A stretch of DNA of 64,000 bases from an uncultured bacterium (GTDB lineage: Bacteria; Babelota; Babeliae; Babelales; Babelaceae). Where the stretch lies: positions 96,001 to 160,000 of the forward strand of contig CAWFXL010000001.1 in assembly GCA_963819815.1 (NCBI GenBank), in the 5' to 3' direction. Of this stretch, positions 30,001 to 42,000 are shown piece by piece. Made by a program: the position numbers. Within the stretch, counting starts at the first letter, position 1. The number at the start of each line of letters is the position of its first letter.

Positions 30001-33000
30001 AAGACGGTGAGCCCGTTTCATACAGGCGAGCTCTTCTCGTTTGCCCGTATTAATGACCACTACCTGCCAATCTCGTGGATCAAGATGTTTTGGTAGCAGC
30101 TTATTTAGTTGTGCATCCTCTTTGGTGAGATCCTTGATAGGGTACAAGTCTGGTAGCACACGCAGATTGCCTTGCTTTAAACCAAACTTTTTACGGAATT
30201 CATCAGGGGTCATGCCATCGATGGTGTCATCCTCATCATCAGGTATATCAAAAGTTACATTCTTTTTTGGCTTAGAAGCGACTTTTGCAGTGGCTGGCAC
30301 TCTAAGGTCTACCGGAATATGTTCTTGAAGCAGGTCTGCTGCAGAGCGTATTTTTTGAAGACTCGTGGATTCTTTTTTAGTAGGGGCTCTCTGTAAGTAT
30401 TTCAGTATAACCTGATCGTTTCCATCCTTTTGGAGGGGATCTATAATCTTCATCGGTTTTCTACAGGTAGGGCATTGATGCTTGCTTCGGGCTGCTTTTA
30501 GAGCTTCTTCCAGAGACAGGTTATGCCCGCACCCTAACTCAATAATAATATGACCTTTATCTACCTCTTGTTGAGACGCAGAACATTTTCGAAGTACCGT
30601 ATCAGGAGCTGGCTTAGTTGAAGGCGTATGTCTCATTAAATACGCGTGTAGCTTGTTTTGTTCTTGAGCGTTGAGCGGCTTTTGACGATGGTGTACATAC
30701 GCATAGCTATTTTTAGTGATCCGAGGATCATGTACCTTATAGGTGCTACGGCAGGTTGGACATGCCCTATCCATTGGATTCGCACGATCCATTGCGATTA
30801 AACAATCTAAGCAATAATGATGGTTAACTTTTTGCTGGCAATCGAACTGAATAACGATACTGTCAGGTGTATAAGCGGTCATGCAAATGGGACAGCCTGT
30901 TCCCTCATCCTCTTCTTCTACTTCATGAGTATGAGCTCTCGGTCCTGTGGCCCAGAGACTTGGGGTAATACTGCCAAAAAGCACTGCTACACCGAGCAGG
31001 GTAATAAGTAATTTCTTCATAGTAAACTTCCACATTTTAGATTTTCTTATATGTTTATATAAGTAGTATAGCCTAAAATGAATAAAACCTTAAGTGGGTA
31101 GAAAAAAGCTTATTCTGAAGCTGTTTTGGACTGCTTATCTACGGCTTGGGCGTATCTTACAAGGAACTGGTAGGCAACACGAATCGCGTGACTAGATGAG
31201 CCTGCATGCTCTATAAGGATAATGAGGACACGGGGCTTTTCATGCTTGTACTGTACATGCGCTGCAAAATATCCATGTGGCATATCTTGCTTTCGTATTG
31301 GCTGAGCATGACGTGCTCTAACCTGGGCAGTGCCTGACTTTCCCTTGAGCTTAAAGCCTTTTAGAGAGCCAAGCATAGAACCGGTACCTTGAGTAATTAC
31401 TCCCTGTAGGCACTCTTGAATGTAGGAAAGTGTAGAAGGTCTTATGGATACGAGTTCATGAACAATGGGCTCATCGGTGAGTATCCGGGGTCTTACTCGA
31501 TAGCCGGTGCATACTGCCGACAGTAGACAGGCTATCTGTAAAGGGGTTACAAGAAGGGAGCTCTGTCCAATGGCAGCTGAAAGGGTTTCTCCAGGCCACC
31601 ACGGCTCATTTTTTACTCTTCTTTTCCATTGGGAGGTTGGAATGAGCCCCTGCTGTTCTGGGAATAATATTCCTGTCTTGTTTCCGAGTCCAAGATCTTG
31701 TGCGTACCAGGCAAGAGTGTCTATTGAAAGACGTTTTCCTATCTCATAAAAGGGTTGATTGCAGGAAAAAGCGAAGGCCTGTTTGGTTGTAAGGGCACCA
31801 TGTACGGCATCATTGTTGCAATGGTAGTGTCTTCCTTTGAAATCAGTATAGCCCCGACAGTTCCAATGAGTATGAGGGGTGACAACGCCTGTTTCAAGCC
31901 CAGCCGCGAGGCTTACCAGCTTAAAAAGGGACGCAGGAGGGTAACATGCGCTGAAGGCCCGATTCATGAAGCCTTTTTTCTCCTGCAGAAGGCTCCACTG
32001 GGAGTGGGTAATAGGTTTAAGAAAGATATTTGGATCAAATGAAGGTCGTGAGAGAACTACTTCAAGGGCCCCGTCCTCGTCCATAAAGATGATGCTCCCT
32101 TCAAGACCCTGAGGAAATACCTCTTCAGCAAACTGCTGAAACGATAGGTTTAAGGTCGTTTGAAGTGTTTTCCCGGCAAGGGCGTGCGAGATGGTATGGG
32201 CATGTAAGGGGTTGCCTATGGCATTGGTAACCTTAAGTATTTGTCCTGCTTGGCCCTGGAGATCTTCTTCATACAACCTCTCAAGGCCCATTTTTCCTTG
32301 GAGTGATTCTTTAACGCTTAGGTATCCTATAATATGGCAGGCAGTGGTGCTGTAGGGATAGCATCGCTCATAGCTCTGCTTTATAGTAAGATTCCTGGAG
32401 GTAGGTACAGTTTCAAGAACTGCGCTGAGCTGCTCATAGGAAATATCAGGTACGAGCTTAAGTTTCGAAGAACGTCTCTCAGCTATCTCTATATCATGCA
32501 TGACTTCTTGGTCGAGATTGCATAGAAGGAGAGCTTGTTGCGCACTCTGCCGTTGTCCTGCTGAAAGCATTACTTTACCGCTACCTTCCCACAGTAAGGA
32601 ATAGACCGGTCTGTTTGTGACAAGCAGCGTACCCTGTTGGTCGGTAATGTTTCCTCGAGGTGAGGCAACCTTTTCCGTTCTGAGATAGTTACGCTTACTC
32701 AGGCTCTTAAACTGATGCATCTGACTAATTTGTAGATGGAATAAATAAAGTACGATCGTTGAAAGCGCGAAGAATATCAGGAAAAGTATATGCCTCATGC
32801 GTGCTGAAAGAATGTGGGGAATATACATAATACTCCCTTATTTAAGGTTGTATTCTTGACAGCGTCTGTTAACCGATGAGCGGTTAACCCCTAAGAGGGT
32901 AGCAATTTTGCTTTGACTTTTGAACTTATGCCAGAGGATAGACATAACATGAGGATCCTTGAGAGCCTTTTTGCCTAGCCGCACTGCATGAGCAATATCT

Positions 33001-39000: not shown

Positions 39001-42000
39001 GTTATGCTCAAGGAGATATTCGCTGCTCGATGTAACTACCGGAATTCCATAATAGGCTCCAGCTTCATATAAGAAAAAACTGGTGAACAGGAGATTGCAT
39101 AGAAGGTTTAAACTATGAAGGAAGGTGCACTTAATTCTTTGGGTTAAGAGGTATTCAAAAAAGAGGGCTAATGCCTGATGTGCACTGATAAAAAGACTCA
39201 GAGAAATTCGGCAATAGAGAGTAAAAAGGGGGATATCGCCCTGTATTTCAAGAATCCTTCGTAAAACGATCGATCCAATATAGGTAGCATCATCAAGGAG
39301 CGTTCCGAAAAGAAATATGAGTAATAGAAAAAGAGGTGCCCTGAGCTGTGGTTTATTATACCAAAACTTCACAATAAACCGGCCAATAACGAGCTTGGCA
39401 AGGCTCACAAGGATGAGCGCGCCACACGTTATATACGGATTAACAAGAAAAGAGGTGAGTGCTTCCAATAAGTGGTTCATCCCTAATATCTCTAGTTCCC
39501 TCTCATGAGGGTGTATATACATGAGTACTGCTTGTACTATTAATTTAAACAAACTAATCTATTGGTCAAATGGTTGGCGGGTCTCCTTTGTTGTCTAATG
39601 GGCAGTAAAAAGGTAAAGTAGCCCATAGGTAGCAAGGAGTGTCATGCAGCTTCAGGAAAAAATAGTACGCATTATACAGCTTTTAAAAGAGGCAACAAAA
39701 GATATGCCTCCGACCTTAACGACGTCCCTCATAAAAGACTATGGGCGGGACCCGTTTATTATCCTTATTTCGTGTCTTTTGAGCCTCCGTGCAAAAGATA
39801 CAGCCACCTATCCGGTGAGTAAAAAGCTCTTTGAGCGAGTGCGTACGCCTGAGGAGCTGCTTAAGATGCCTGTTAAAGAGCTCGAGGAACTTCTTTATCC
39901 GCTTGGGTTTTATCGTAAGAAGACCGAAACTGTCCGATCGGTTTGCCAAGAGCTTATTAGGAGGTTTAAGGGAAATGTACCGCATACCGAGGAGGAGCTC
40001 CTCTCCTTAAAGGGAGTTGGGCGGAAAACAGCCCAGCTCGTACTTGGTAGTGCCTTCAAAATACCCACTATTTGCGTTGATACCCATGTACATAGGATTG
40101 CCAATAGGCTTGGCTGGATCCAGACGACCCATCCTGATGAAACGGAAAGGGAATTAAAACGGCTCATTCCACAAGAATATTGGCTGGATATTAATACCTA
40201 TCTCGTTATGTGGGGCCAGAATATCTGTGTACCCATCTCACCCAAATGTTCCCAATGTGTTTTGAGTCCCTTATGCCCTAAAATTGGCGTAGGGAAAAGA
40301 AGGTAATGGTGCGCCATTGTTGTATCCAATACGAACGTGTGGCTGATGGGATCAGGTCATTTTAATGGGGCAGGATCTTAGGGGGTACTGAGCTCGTTCT
40401 TGACGTTCTTGAGTTACTCGTGTATCTTAAGTAATAGCTTTTACTGGAAATCCTTTTGTTGTTTGATCCAATTCTGACGTAGTCTAGTTGCACTCACAAG
40501 TAGGTAGTACCTAAAAGTATTTTGATACATTTTTCTAACATCTATTTTGTGAGGTTCTTGAATGAAACTATACGTAGGAAACCTTTCCCGCTCTACAACG
40601 GATGATACGGTTCGACAAGCATTTGAACAATTTGGCGAAGTATCGTCAGTTCGAATTCTCTTCGATCGTGAAACCCGCCAATCTCGTGGTTTCGGCTTTG
40701 TCGAAATGCCACAAGATGAGCAAGCGAAAGAAGCTATGGATAAGCTTAATGAAACTGAAATTGAAGGTCGTCGCATTCGTGTAAACGAAGCGCGCGAACC
40801 AGAACGCACCGGCGGAAGCAGTGGTGGTGGCCGTTCGGGTGGTGGTTTCCGCGGTGATCGCGGCGGTGACCGTGGTCCACGTGATGGCGGTTTTAGAAAT
40901 CGTTTCTAAGTTTTGAAACAAACAAAAGGGTGGGCCTTAAAACCCACTCTTTTTTGTTGTCTATCTTGTTAGGCTACCCCCCCGTAATCAGTACATTGTA
41001 TCATAAGCCCAGGCAGGAATACCTCTCATGAGCTCGATGAGTTATAGAAACTTGCCTTATAACTCATAAAATGATAAAATATGAGTTATAGAGGATGACC
41101 TATGCAGTGGAACTGGCAGCTGGCTACATGGCCGAATTTTACCTATAACCCTGATAGCATAACTGAGCTTGAAAGAACATTTCTTTTAAGAGCAGGCAGC
41201 AGCTATGCTTTGTTATGCACTACAGGTGAGAAGGATAGAACTCAATTTATAATTGAGATGCTCACTCAAGAAGGATTAGAAAGTTCAAAAATTGAGGGAG
41301 AGCTTCTCGACCGGGAAAGTTTAGTATCATCAATTAAAAAGCACTTTGGGTTGCATGATGATAGTAAGAATCAATCTAATAAAGAGGCGGGGATGGCTGA
41401 GCTTCTCTGTAACGTATATGAGACCTACGATGCACCGCTTAGCCACGAAATGCTTTGGCAATGGCATGGGATGCTCTTTAAAAAAAATTGGTCCAGTCTT
41501 GAAGAATGCGGACAGTATCGGACACATAAAGAGCCGATGCAGATTGTTTCTGGTCATGGTGATGGACGCATCTACTTCGAAGCGCCCCCTTCAAAGAATG
41601 TATACAAAGAAATGACGAGATTTATCGAATGGTATAATGCTTCAGGCACTTCAGAGACTCTTTTAGGACGAGCTGCTCTTGCACATGTGTACTTTGAAAG
41701 TATTCATCCCTTTGAAGATGGAAATGGAAGGATAGGCAGAGTTCTTGTGGAAAAAGTTCTCTCCCAAGGAGCTCAACAACCTCTTTTGATTGCAGTTTCA
41801 AAGTGCATTGAAAAACGCAAAAAGGCCTATTATACAGAACTTGAAAGATGTAATAGGACGGTTGAGGTACAGCACGGGGTTGAGTTTTTTGCCCACATAA
41901 TCCTGCAAGCTCAGCAAGATTCGATGAGGCTTCTCAACTTTTTGATGCAGAAGTCTAAAATGCTTACGGCGCTATCAGGAAAAATCAATCAACGACAAGA

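What a model noticed while it worked through the whole genome (the two positions that open the first line are those of the whole stretch)
32838..39522. Secreted mini-peptide genes paired with a 7TM, ATPase-dead bEBP-type regulator in a phylum without sigma-54: a candidate [...]
g00124 and g00128 (904 and 920 aa, 49% identical) are membrane regulators built as seven transmembrane helices, a GAF-like and a PAS-like domain, a sigma-54-activator-type AAA+ domain and a Fis-type HTH. The AAA+ domain is dead: the Walker A loop is missing, the Walker B acidic pair is Gln-Asn, and the loop that touches sigma-54 is gone; the genome and the phylum lack sigma-54. Between the two genes lie three 40-41 aa genes (g00125-g00127, C1:131731-132697), the first divergent from g00124 by 178 bp; each has a strong ribosome-binding site, a Sec signal peptide, a 16-17 aa mature peptide and a strong terminator hairpin. 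All four other species of the genus that were looked at have 1-2 such ge [...]
Evidence so far: Pfam matches only the second half of Sigma54_activat; PDB sequence hits NtrC1, PspF, LuxO on residues 617-830. Motif losses read in the sequences and in the 15-sequence phylum alignment A14, where the degenerate Walker A and B stretches are consensus or invariant. AlphaFold2 on A14: pLDDT 71.9, seven long helices in 14-259, alpha/beta domains 270-440 and 480-565, AAA-like 600-790, helical end; hydropathy peaks within 1-264. Sigma54_DBD: none here; 0 of 121 Babelota genomes over the cut-off, controls ring in 4 of 14. Regulator family: 356 clusters at E<=1e-60, ~900 aa, named 'sigma 54-interacting' incl. 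Babela massiliensis; in 15 of 15 genomes sampled over the phylum. Peptides: sequences, RBS [...]
(Added by a program. Inside this text positions count along the whole contig: contig position 96,001 is position 1 of the stretch shown here. "Call 12" and the like, gene names such as g00115 and contig names such as C1 are that model's own, and its searches are not shown. The text may have been shortened before it was handed on; [...] marks where a part breaks off. The agent that wrote the report below was given it as the finding of a first reader that could run no searches.)

Follow-up and report, generated by a model that had tools for sequence, protein, structure and literature searches.

The report
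Membrane regulator paired with micropeptide genes
Two seven-helix membrane proteins fused to a gene regulator with a dead ATPase sit beside three tiny secreted-peptide genes, and the same regulator-plus-micropeptide pair recurs across this phylum of intracellular bacteria, so it looks like an undescribed peptide-sensing switch.

Summary
Two paralogous regulators (904 and 920 aa, 49% identical) have seven N-terminal membrane helices, GAF-like and PAS-like domains, a sigma-54-activator AAA+ domain lacking Walker A, Walker B, GAFTGA and arginine fingers, and a Fis-type HTH. No sigma-54 domain passed cut-off in 261 phylum genomes. Between them lie three tandem units, each with a promoter, leader, ribosome-binding site, 40-41 aa signal-peptide gene and terminator.

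New here: the link is not weak outside the genus. By one criterion, 62 of 80 regulator genes examined (58 genomes) have a divergent mini-gene; controls gave 3.4% and 2.3%. The peptides share a hydrophobic helix followed by a Pro-Pro or aromatic C-terminus. The mini-gene promoter abuts the regulator's start codon. A second promoter behind the mini-gene reads back through it. Some precursors repeat the motif, and regulator paralog clades carry distinct peptide classes.

Best reading (0.45): an exported cognate peptide acts on its regulator, resembling Rgg/SHP and PrgX/PrgQ but with a different receptor. No expression or binding data exist, and a complex prediction gave no verdict. The scan noted this family before on four other genomes.

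The parts
32838..35552 (-). reg1: a 904-aa regulator. N-out 7TM bundle (about residues 14-263), GAF-like domain, long helix, PAS-like domain, degenerate AAA+ domain (about 607-827) and Fis-type HTH (about 875-900).
   Evidence: ORF; Pfam; PDB sequence and profile hits; AF2 of residues 1-275, pLDDT 89, seven long helices; AF2 of residues 262-612, pLDDT 75; fold matches.
35569..35596 (+). P1a, the sigma-70-like promoter of peptide gene 1 (TTGACT-16-TAGAAT). It starts 17 nt from the reg1 start codon.
   Evidence: Promoter scan, 10 of 12 matches. Conserved in all three units. The same position holds phylum-wide.
35624..35651 (-). Candidate reg1 promoter (TTGACA-16-TAAACT) inside the leader of peptide gene 1. 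It faces P1a, so the two start sites would overlap by roughly 13 nt.
   Evidence: Promoter scan. Degenerate in units 2 and 3, which have no regulator beside them (reading). Prediction only.
35731..35853 (+). Peptide gene 1, 40 aa: basic N-terminus, hydrophobic core, VSA-Q signal-peptidase-type site, 17-aa tail ending CPFPF.
   Evidence: ORF and AAGGAG 5 nt upstream. No Pfam family. The ortholog in G027 is intact.
35860..35909 (.). Terminator 1, a perfect 50-nt palindrome with A and T runs on its flanks.
   Evidence: Sequence. The 73 nt after the stop fold at -44.4 kcal/mol.
36001..36028 (+). P1b, the promoter of peptide gene 2 (TTGACT-16-TACAAT).
36162..36284 (+). Peptide gene 2, 40 aa (41 from 36159). 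The mature part is nearly the same as peptide 1 and ends VCPFPF.
36301..36339 (.). Terminator 2, an 18-bp stem with a 3-nt loop.
36431..36458 (+). P1c, the promoter of peptide gene 3 (TTGACT-16-TAGAAT).
36572..36697 (+). Peptide gene 3, 41 aa. Second peptide type, with a tail ending EARFPF.
36710..36744 (.). Terminator 3, a 16-bp stem with a 3-nt loop. It lies 15 nt beyond the reg2 stop codon, so it is placed to end both peptide gene 3 and reg2.
   Evidence: Sequence. The role for reg2 is inferred from position.
36760..39522 (-). reg2, the 920-aa paralog. It belongs to a genus-specific clade that has no divergent peptide gene of its own; nth lies divergent upstream.
   Evidence: Tree clade of 5 rows, all without a peptide gene.
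39644..40306 (+). nth (endonuclease III), divergent from reg2. In most of the phylum it lies about 70-110 bp downstream of the mini-gene on the same strand.
   Evidence: Pfam HhH-GPD. An nth homolog is the upstream opposite-strand neighbour of 45 regulator genes. Gaps.
31110..32828 (-). PBP2-type transpeptidase gene starting 9 nt after the reg1 stop, so probably co-transcribed with reg1.
   Evidence: Pfam. The same neighbour follows 7 regulator genes.

Best explanation
The locus is a receptor-micropeptide cassette conserved through much of the phylum.

Shown:
- Each regulator is a single-chain, membrane-embedded transcription factor. An N-out, GPCR-like seven-helix bundle is joined through GAF-like and PAS-like domains to an AAA+ module, and then to a nearly invariant Fis-type HTH.
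- The AAA+ module has no ATP-binding or sigma-54-contacting motifs.
- Beside the regulator, on the opposite strand, lies a mini-gene with its own sigma-70-type promoter.
- Its product has a basic N-terminus, one hydrophobic helix and a C-terminal Pro-Pro or aromatic motif.
- In this genus the product became a canonical signal peptide plus a 16-25 aa tail. In this window it is present as three tandem copies of two types.

Inferred:
- The regulator acts at sigma-70-type promoters.
- The peptide is exported and trimmed: by signal peptidase I here, and by another protease, such as the RseP-type enzyme the genome encodes, in the short forms.
- The Pro-rich C-terminal piece acts on the outer face or helix bundle of its cognate regulator.
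- The regulator then shifts the balance between the two facing promoters (peptide against regulator). This would give an autoinducing or bistable switch that also controls unknown distant targets.

Whether the signal passes between cells (density or confinement sensing inside the host) or stays autocrine in the periplasm is open.
For: 1. Association. 62 of 80 regulator genes from 58 genomes have a divergent small ORF with a hydrophobic helix and a PP or P-aromatic-P tail within 700 bp. Controls gave 46 of 1366 genes of the own genome and 3 of 131 other genes in the same loci. A stricter short-form pattern gave 41 of 80 against 12 of 1367. In the genus, 10 of 10 genomes have such a gene.

2. 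The mini-gene stays with the regulator when nth is absent. This is seen for the inner paralogs of tandem pairs and for this genus.

3. Real genes. AGGAG-type ribosome-binding sites are present. A P1 promoter (TTGnnn-17-TAnnnT) abuts the regulator ATG in 49 of at most 63 regulator genes. Amino-acid character is conserved without nucleotide conservation.

4. Wiring. An extended -10 promoter on the regulator strand lies just behind the mini-gene stop in 29 of 43 loci. It occurs in 0 of 43 on the other strand, and shuffles predict 0.35.

5. The motif behaves as the functional unit. Single precursors repeat it: DDFPPMG three times in G022, AGGPPG twice in G191, (W/F)PPIL twice in G012.

6. Specificity. 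A 12-row regulator clade (support 100) carries [RK]-aromatic-PP peptides in 9-10 rows. Its 23-row sister clade carries none.

7. Signal peptides in the genus have small residues at -3 and -1, such as VSA-Q, VNA-E, VIA-Q and VTA-Q.

8. Sensor. The 7TM model has pLDDT 89. K/R-rich loops follow helices 1, 3, 5 and 7 (sequence).

9. Peptides evolve faster than the regulators. Between G000 and G027 they show 14 non-synonymous against 9 synonymous codon changes. The regulators show 16 against 88 and 41 against 112.
Against: - There are no expression, export or binding data.
- The reg2-type clade of this genus (5 of 5 rows) has no peptide gene of its own, and peptide copy number does not track regulator number.
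- The window's own peptides end in P-F-P-F or R-F-P-F, not Pro-Pro. Their kinship to the PP forms therefore rests on position and architecture.
- Several [RK]-aromatic-PP peptides are only weakly hydrophobic, so export is not obvious for them.
- Paralog-specific peptide classes amount to essentially one evolutionary event.
- No operator motif was found beyond the promoter hexamers.
- In a diderm, a periplasmic peptide would have to cross the outer membrane to signal between cells.
- The sampled loci were chosen by hand from the top of the hit table. Families f4, f6, f10 and f20 were not sampled.
Confidence: 0.45

Rival explanations
1. The micropeptide is a resident partner rather than a released signal. 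It would be a small membrane or periplasmic protein that binds the 7TM bundle and sets its activity, for example as regulator-controlled feedback in the manner of MgrB on PhoQ (recalled). There would be no communication between cells.
For: In most of the phylum the peptide is only 23-38 aa. The hydrophobic helix runs straight into the PP motif and leaves 1-6 residues beyond it, which fits a single-pass micro-protein with a stub on the outer face. Many have Pro at the position where signal peptidase would have to cut, for example SVA-PP. The tight gene pairing fits a partner as well as it fits a ligand.
Against: Members of this genus have canonical cleavage sites and 16-25 aa tails, which points to release. 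Multi-copy precursors (DDFPPMG three times) point to proteolytic release of units. Partner subunits are usually co-transcribed, not placed under an opposing promoter (inference).
Confidence: 0.17
2. The peptide genes are only an output of the regulator, or merely share its control region. They would encode secreted products aimed elsewhere (envelope, host or competitors) that do not act back on the regulator.
For: Divergent regulator-target pairs are common in bacteria (general knowledge). Here the peptide genes are amplified to three copies with strong promoters and terminators, as expected for a highly expressed product. The peptides evolve fast. Many proteins of this phylum carry signal peptides (PMC6561590, passages).
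Against: A phylum-wide, position-fixed pairing with a conserved C-terminal motif and paralog-specific peptide classes is more than expected of an arbitrary target. The short forms leave almost nothing outside the membrane to act on another partner.
Confidence: 0.22
3. The mini-ORF works in cis and its product does not matter. Its translation, perhaps with Pro-Pro pausing, or simply the facing transcription across it, would tune the regulator and the nth gene downstream.
For: The mini-ORF lies wholly in the overlap of the predicted facing promoters. nth follows it by 67-114 bp, mostly without a strong hairpin. Pro-Pro motifs can pause ribosomes, and R-x-P-P recalls the RAPP arrest motif (recalled).
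Against: The hydrophobic helix and basic N-terminus are conserved, which pausing does not need. In the short forms the helix is still inside the ribosome tunnel when PP is decoded, so no export-coupled release is possible (inference). The mini-genes persist where no nth follows. In this window each copy ends in a strong terminator. Units 2 and 3 have no regulator promoter facing them.
Confidence: 0.1
4. Chance neighbours: these are unrelated small ORFs that happen to lie near the regulators.
For: Small hydrophobic ORFs do arise by chance. 3.4% of control genes show one under the same criterion.
Against: 62 of 80 against 3.4% and 2.3%. Distance, ribosome-binding site and promoter are all fixed in position.
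Confidence: 0.03

Closest known systems
Sigma-54-independent homologs of enhancer-binding proteins (TyrR, DhaR, HupR, VpsR)
   Same: A central AAA+-type domain of the Sigma54_activat family without GAFTGA, a C-terminal Fis-type HTH, and action expected at sigma-70 promoters. PMC3162934 (passages) names TyrR, DhaR and HupR as sigma-70 dependent, and VpsR as probably not sigma-54 dependent. The cytoplasmic GAF-PAS-AAA+-HTH order is as in DhaR. VpsR and DhaR appear among the sequence and fold matches.
   Different: A 7TM membrane domain sits at the N-terminus. Walker A and B and the arginine fingers are all lost family-wide. The family occurs in a phylum with no sigma-54 at all, and it is paired with a micropeptide gene.
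Rgg/SHP quorum sensing of streptococci (groups I and II)
   Same: The peptide gene is transcribed divergently from its regulator. The precursor is short, basic and then hydrophobic, with the active part at the C-terminus. A conserved Asp or Glu starts the mature peptide (PMC13361665, passages); here D/E lies within 3 residues before PP in 26 of 60 peptides. An M50 (Eep/RseP-type) protease is encoded in the genome.
   Different: The Rgg receptor is a cytoplasmic HTH-TPR protein that needs peptide import by Opp. Here the regulator itself spans the membrane and has no TPR. The motif here is Pro-Pro, and the organism is a diderm intracellular bacterium.
PrgX/PrgQ pheromone switch of Enterococcus plasmid pCF10
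   Same: The peptide precursor gene and the regulator gene are read from facing promoters with overlapping transcripts (convergent for 223 nt; PMC3181467, passages). Here P1 and the predicted regulator promoter face each other across the whole mini-gene in 29 of 43 loci.
   Different: The promoters here are predicted, not mapped. In this window the overlap would be only about 13 nt. The receptor is unrelated.
Transmembrane transcription regulators (ToxR, CadC and relatives)
   Same: One-component regulators that bind DNA while anchored in the cytoplasmic membrane (PMC10269533, abstract).
   Different: Those I recall have one helix and an N-terminal DNA-binding domain. A term search of that paper found no sigma-54, HTH_8, polytopic or Dependentiae. 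Here there are seven helices and a C-terminal HTH.
Polytopic peptide-pheromone receptors AgrC and ComD (recalled)
   Same: A multi-helix membrane sensor for a small exported peptide encoded nearby.
   Different: Those are histidine kinases that signal to a separate response regulator. Here the sensor and the DNA-binding output are one chain and there is no kinase.

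Membership tests
Bacterial enhancer-binding proteins (sigma-54 activators) | Pfam Sigma54_activat match above the cut-off | tested here: met
   39.8 and 39.6 bits against a 20.2 cut-off, but only profile positions 93-166 and 67-167 of 168. The family profile aligns to NtrC4 over 607-827.
Bacterial enhancer-binding proteins (sigma-54 activators) | Walker A P-loop (GxxxxGK[ST]) | tested here: not met
   GESGTGKE of NtrC4 aligns with lpeeDllp. No Gly-Lys pair in any of 35 of 35 sequences.
Bacterial enhancer-binding proteins (sigma-54 activators) | Walker B acidic pair (hhhhDE) | tested here: not met
   GTLFIQNV against GTLFLDEI. The first position is mostly Q, E or K (one P), and the Asn is invariant in 35 of 35.
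Bacterial enhancer-binding proteins (sigma-54 activators) | GAFTGA loop that contacts sigma-54 | tested here: not met
   EKGAFTGA of NtrC1 aligns with NPLIKKDG. The family consensus is FGINPLxx.
Bacterial enhancer-binding proteins (sigma-54 activators) | Sigma-54 present in the organism | tested here: not met
   Sigma54_DBD and Sigma54_CBD passed the cut-off in 0 of 261 phylum genomes. Controls passed in 4 of 14. The own genome is 88% complete.
Sigma-54-independent bEBP homologs (TyrR/DhaR/VpsR type) | AAA+-like core without GAFTGA plus a C-terminal HTH | tested here: met
   The HTH stretch KIATFLGVNRSSVNRR is almost invariant.
Sigma-54-independent bEBP homologs (TyrR/DhaR/VpsR type) | Acts at sigma-70 promoters | not testable with these tools
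   Only sigma-70-like promoters are predicted next to the genes.
Rgg/SHP (RRNPP) peptide signalling | Cytoplasmic HTH-TPR receptor | tested here: not met
   No TPR family in Pfam. The architecture is 7TM-GAF-PAS-AAA+-HTH.
Rgg/SHP (RRNPP) peptide signalling | Short hydrophobic peptide gene divergent from the regulator | tested here: met
Rgg/SHP (RRNPP) peptide signalling | Export, Eep-type maturation and re-import by Opp | tested here: inconclusive
   An M50 protease is encoded, but so it is in 14 of 14 control genomes. PptAB and Opp were not searched.
Facing-promoter peptide/regulator switch (PrgX/PrgQ type) | Convergent promoters with the peptide gene in the overlap | tested here: inconclusive
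   Predicted in 29 of 43 loci outside the family f1. In the window the facing promoters are predicted with about 13 nt of overlap. No start sites have been mapped.
Export-monitoring arrest peptides (SecM, VemP, RAPP type; recalled) | Encoded upstream of, and co-directional with, the gene they control, with the arrest motif far enough from the signal for a pulling force | tested here: not met
   Opposite strand to the regulator. In the short forms the helix abuts PP. The window copies end in terminators.
Class A GPCR-like 7TM fold | Seven-helix up-down bundle superposable on GPCRs | tested here: inconclusive
   VIA-align: top 50 all GPCRs, Z 16.6-14.3, about 240 residues aligned, rmsd 4-5.8 A. 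Foldseek: best E 4.6e-4, TM 0.45-0.58. The tool's note puts typical best Z for helical bundles near 14, so this shows a shared arrangement, not kinship.

The most novel reading that the evidence does not exclude
A new class of bacterial cell-signalling device: a GPCR-like seven-helix receptor fused in one chain to a DNA-binding regulator. It would sense a short, exported, Pro-rich peptide encoded beside it. It would be wired through facing promoters into a bistable switch. It would let obligate intracellular Dependentiae measure their own density or confinement inside the host and time their developmental cycle. That would be the first peptide signalling system in this phylum, where quorum sensing was reported absent in one annotated genome (PMC6561590, passage).
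Probability: 0.25. Interest if true: 0.9.

Novelty: new variant of a known kind. Interest (0 to 1): 0.75.

Why it matters
- These bacteria keep very few transcription regulators. B. massiliensis is predicted to have five (PMC4378268, passage). A family kept in 185 of 261 genomes, often in two copies, is therefore likely to control something central.
- The database label 'sigma-54-interacting' is misleading for it.
- The micropeptide genes are short enough to be missed or left unnamed. The window's own are unnamed in the protein collection.
- If the peptide acts on the regulator, this is a receptor architecture with no described counterpart. It would also be a handle on how uncultured intracellular symbionts of protists coordinate their behaviour.
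- Peptide and regulator together make a compact pair that can be tested in a reporter strain.

Tried and rejected
- Complex prediction of reg1 residues 1-275 (with alignment A3) and the 40-aa peptide 1 precursor gave score 0.02. No verdict, so it counts neither way.
- Sequencing runs: no RNA holder is listed, only two soil-metagenome DNA runs with small shares, which I did not lay.
- Rfam on 35400-36900: nothing reached a gathering score, only hairpin-type chance matches.
- Pfam on the three peptides: no family.
- Operator search by k-mer counts and position-wise information around P1 found only the promoter hexamers and a few flanking bases.
- Leader peptide for nth: considered because nth follows the mini-gene in most of the phylum. 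Rejected as the main role because mini-genes persist without nth.
- Lipoprotein: some genus members have Cys near residue 8-9, but too close to the N-terminus, and the window's peptides lack it.
- C-terminal aromatic signal of the outer-membrane-protein type: the C-termini in the genus are not consistently aromatic.
- GPCR kinship: fold scores are in the range of generic helical bundles.
- Other architectures for the 7TM domain: a profile search of 1.84 billion representatives gave 404 hits at E up to 0.001. In all 150 listed, the domain starts at the N-terminus (two begin at residues 43 and 58). Most are about 900 aa; I take the many shorter ones for fragments without checking them.
- Literature: searches for Dependentiae with sigma-54 (0 papers), with regulators and signal peptides, for seven-helix membrane transcription factors, and for Babela/Vermiphilus regulators and peptides found no description of this family or pairing.

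Full report
**What is there**

The stretch 32838-39522 holds two long genes on the minus strand: reg1 (32838-35552, 904 aa) and reg2 (36760-39522, 920 aa). They are 49% identical over their full length. They are the only two copies in the 1.64-Mb genome.

Between them, on the plus strand, lie three small genes:
- 35731-35853, 40 aa
- 36162-36284, 40 aa (41 if the ATG at 36159 is used)
- 36572-36697, 41 aa

A DNA alignment shows three tandem copies of a unit of about 420 bp, at 78% mean column identity. Each unit holds:
- a sigma-70-like promoter, TTGACT-16-TA(G/C)AAT, 10 of 12 matches
- a leader of about 130 nt
- an AGGAG 5 nt before the ATG
- the peptide gene
- a perfect palindromic hairpin (35860-35909, 36301-36339, 36710-36744)

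The 73 nt after the first stop fold at -44.4 kcal/mol. The unit and the peptide type occur nowhere else in the genome.

**The regulators**

Pfam sees only the second half of Sigma54_activat. PDB sequence searches hit NtrC1, NtrC4, PspF, LuxO, NifA, FleQ and VpsR.

The residue-level alignments show four losses:
- Walker A: GESGTGKE is replaced by (L/M)PEEDLxP.
- Walker B: the DE pair is replaced by QN.
- GAFTGA is replaced by NPLIKKDG.
- The arginine-finger stretch FREDLYYRL reads FCQELYDEL.

In an alignment of 35 family members from across the phylum these losses are the rule. The Walker B Asn is invariant, and the HTH stretch KIATFLGVNRSSVNRR is almost invariant.

AlphaFold2 on the N-terminal 275 residues with that alignment gives pLDDT 89, pTM 0.85 and seven long helices. 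The K/R-rich loops follow helices 1, 3, 5 and 7. This fits an N-out, C-in topology that leaves the rest of the protein in the cytoplasm (my reading of the sequence).

The bundle superposes best on class A GPCRs: VIA-align Z 16.6-14.3 for the top 50, and Foldseek E 4.6e-4 at best. By the tool's own note this range is near what generic helical bundles reach, so I take it as a shared arrangement only.

The middle part (residues 262-612, pLDDT 75) folds as an alpha/beta domain, a long helix and a PAS-like domain. It matches phytochrome sensory modules (PAS-GAF-PHY) and the N-terminal part of E. coli DhaR.

A profile of the 7TM domain finds 404 proteins among 1.84 billion representatives. In all 150 listed the domain starts at the N-terminus (two begin at residues 43 and 58). 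Most are about 900 aa.

**No sigma-54**

- Sigma54_DBD: nothing in the own genome, which is 88% complete by markers.
- Sigma54_DBD: 0 of 261 phylum genomes over the cut-off.
- Sigma54_CBD: 0 of 261.
- The controls passed the cut-off in 4 of 14 genomes each time.
- The best sub-threshold hit (21.9 bits, G097) sits in a 33-aa open frame.

**Distribution of the regulator**

With reg1 as query, 185 of 261 phylum genomes have a match at E up to 1e-20. Families f3, f5, f12, f14, f15, f17 (0 of 35) and f18 (0 of 12) have none with this query. So it is widespread but not universal.

**The pairing with peptide genes**

I fetched the regulator loci of 58 of those 185 genomes: 18 of the window's family and 40 of other families. 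They were chosen by hand from the best hits, roughly one per genus. Families f4, f6, f10 and f20 were not sampled.

In the genus, 10 of 10 genomes have one to five signal-peptide mini-genes next to a regulator gene or a regulator remnant.

Outside the genus the mini-gene is shorter, at 23-38 aa. It has a basic N-terminus and one hydrophobic helix. Immediately after the helix comes Pro-Pro, followed by one to six residues and the stop. The Pro-Pro is often preceded by Asp or Glu. Examples are tails such as LLDTPPFS, LGDMPPVGG, AEYPPLG and GDYPPGC.

Counts:

| Criterion | Regulator genes | Controls |
|---|---|---|
| Uniform: ORF of 18-75 aa, a hydrophobic 11-mer, PP or P-aromatic-P in the last 14 residues, divergent strand, within 700 bp | 62 of 80 (10 of 17 in the genus, 7 of 10 elsewhere in the family, 45 of 53 in other families) | 46 of 1366 genes of the own genome; 3 of 131 other genes in the same loci |
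| Stricter short-form pattern | 41 of 80 | 12 of 1367 |

Most of the misses fall into three groups:
- the reg2-type clade of this genus
- broken or mis-started copies
- less hydrophobic peptides of the second class

Genus members end in related motifs: GPPY.., GGGPPWIIGR, PGPPWNH, RPPYFPHI, VPPPP, GLPPY, GVPPYEE. The window and its closest relative G027 have (C/A)PFPF and RFPF instead.

**Signs that the C-terminal motif is the working part**

- Three precursors repeat it within one chain: DDFPPMG three times in G022, AGGPPG twice in G191, and (W/F)PPIL twice in G012.
- On a FastTree of 78 of the 80 regulators (two shorter than 700 aa were dropped), a 12-row clade (support 100) carries [RK]-aromatic-PP peptides in 9 rows, plus one read by eye.
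- Its 23-row sister clade (support 96) carries none. One further case lies outside.
- Five of those labels were added by hand from earlier outputs.
- This is essentially one duplication event, so it is suggestive of cognate pairing, not proof.

**Wiring**

The mini-gene promoter P1 (TTGnnn-17-TATACT) begins 2-21 nt from the regulator's start codon in most loci. A fixed-spacing pattern finds it for 49 regulator genes of at most 63 in loci L044-L093. From base composition I would expect about one by chance (my arithmetic).

Just behind the mini-gene's stop, on the regulator's strand, an extended -10 promoter (TTGnnn-N13-15-TGnTAnnnT) is present in 29 of 43 loci outside the family. The other strand has it in 0 of 43, and shuffles predict 0.35.

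If real, regulator transcription starts beyond the mini-gene and runs antisense through it into P1. The two promoters therefore face each other.

In the window the arrangement is compressed. P1a lies at 35569-35596. A facing TTGACA-16-TAAACT lies at 35651-35624, inside the peptide leader. That site is degenerate in units 2 and 3, which have no regulator beside them.

All promoters are predictions.

**Neighbours**

In the rest of the phylum an nth (endonuclease III) homolog is the upstream opposite-strand neighbour of 45 regulator genes. It follows the mini-gene by 67-114 bp, usually without a strong hairpin.

The mini-gene nevertheless stays with the regulator where nth is absent: at the inner paralogs of tandem pairs, and in this genus. 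Here reg2 kept nth and lost the mini-gene.

A PBP2-type gene starts 9 nt after reg1.

**Rates**

Codon differences between G000 and G027 (raw counts, few sites):

| Gene(s) | Synonymous | Non-synonymous |
|---|---|---|
| reg1 | 88 | 16 |
| reg2 | 112 | 41 |
| Three peptide genes together (124 codons) | 9 | 14 |

All three peptide frames, their cleavage-type sites and their C-terminal FPF are kept.

**How it most likely works**

Shown:
- the anatomy
- the dead ATPase motifs
- the absence of sigma-54
- the conserved gene pair
- the shared peptide design

Inferred:
- The peptide is exported. In this genus the tail is released by signal peptidase I.
- The tail acts on the outer face or helix bundle of its regulator.
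- The regulator, as a membrane-tethered sigma-70-type factor using the dead AAA+ module only as an assembly scaffold, shifts the balance of the facing promoters and controls further targets.

I put 0.45 on an exported cognate peptide acting on the regulator. The rest splits as 0.17 on a resident partner protein, 0.22 on a mere output, 0.10 on a cis-acting ORF and 0.03 on chance.

**Comparison with known systems**

The regulator fails four defining tests of a sigma-54 activator. It belongs instead with the sigma-54-independent homologs (TyrR, DhaR, HupR, VpsR; PMC3162934, passages). It differs from them by its 7TM domain and by the complete loss of the nucleotide site.

The gene pair works like two known systems:
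- Rgg/SHP: divergent shp, mature peptide starting with Asp or Glu, Eep, PptAB and Opp (PMC13361665, passages).
- PrgX/PrgQ: promoters convergent for 223 nt (PMC3181467, passages).

The receptor, however, is unrelated and needs no import.

A survey of transmembrane transcription regulators (PMC10269533; abstract and a term search) does not mention this type. The C. destructans genome paper states that quorum-sensing mechanisms were absent (PMC6561590, passage). I found no paper on this family or pairing.

**Earlier notes of this scan**

Four earlier reports on other genomes describe the same regulator family. Two of them mention a neighbouring tiny peptide gene. I saw them after my own analysis and they agree with it.

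New here, as far as those notes show:
- the Pro-Pro motif
- the controls
- the facing promoters
- the repeated precursors
- the paralog-specific peptide classes
- the nth synteny

Noticed in passing
window 29674-31035 (-): 453-aa protein with an N-terminal hydrophobic segment and two RING-type zinc fingers (zf-RING_2, E 4e-9). This is a eukaryote-like ubiquitin-ligase domain in a bacterium, and so a candidate host-directed effector.
   Followed up: no
window 41102-42199 (+): Fic/DOC family protein with DUF4172 (E 4e-19 and 1e-20).
   Followed up: no
window 40562-40909 (+): 115-aa RRM_1 RNA-binding protein with a Gly/Arg-rich tail (E 7e-24).
   Followed up: no
window 39644-40306 (+) and loci L044-L093: The regulator, mini-gene and nth (endonuclease III) keep the same order across most of the phylum. 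nth may be read from the mini-gene promoter. In G019 an nth fragment lies between the two regulator copies, which marks the duplicated unit.
   Followed up: partly
window 35929-35951 and 36367-36389: A small conserved GGGG-N6-CCCC hairpin follows terminators 1 and 2 but not terminator 3. Its role is unknown.
   Followed up: no
G034:C3:1133556-1136265, G031:C2:690756-693196, G025:C1:968484-971129, G253, G194: Regulator copies with internal stop codons or in pieces, some still next to a peptide gene. This is ongoing gain and loss of paralogs.
   Followed up: no
L052 (G097:C8:52-144): Sub-threshold Sigma54_DBD match (21.9 bits against a 22.8 cut-off) in a 33-aa open frame near a contig end. It is most likely an unrelated HTH-like stretch.
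   Followed up: no
loci L064, L075, L077, L079, L082, L088, L089, L091: The second peptide class, [RK]-aromatic-Pro-Pro, is often only weakly hydrophobic, so it may not be exported in the same way. The motif recalls the RAPP ribosome-arrest motif (recalled).
   Followed up: partly
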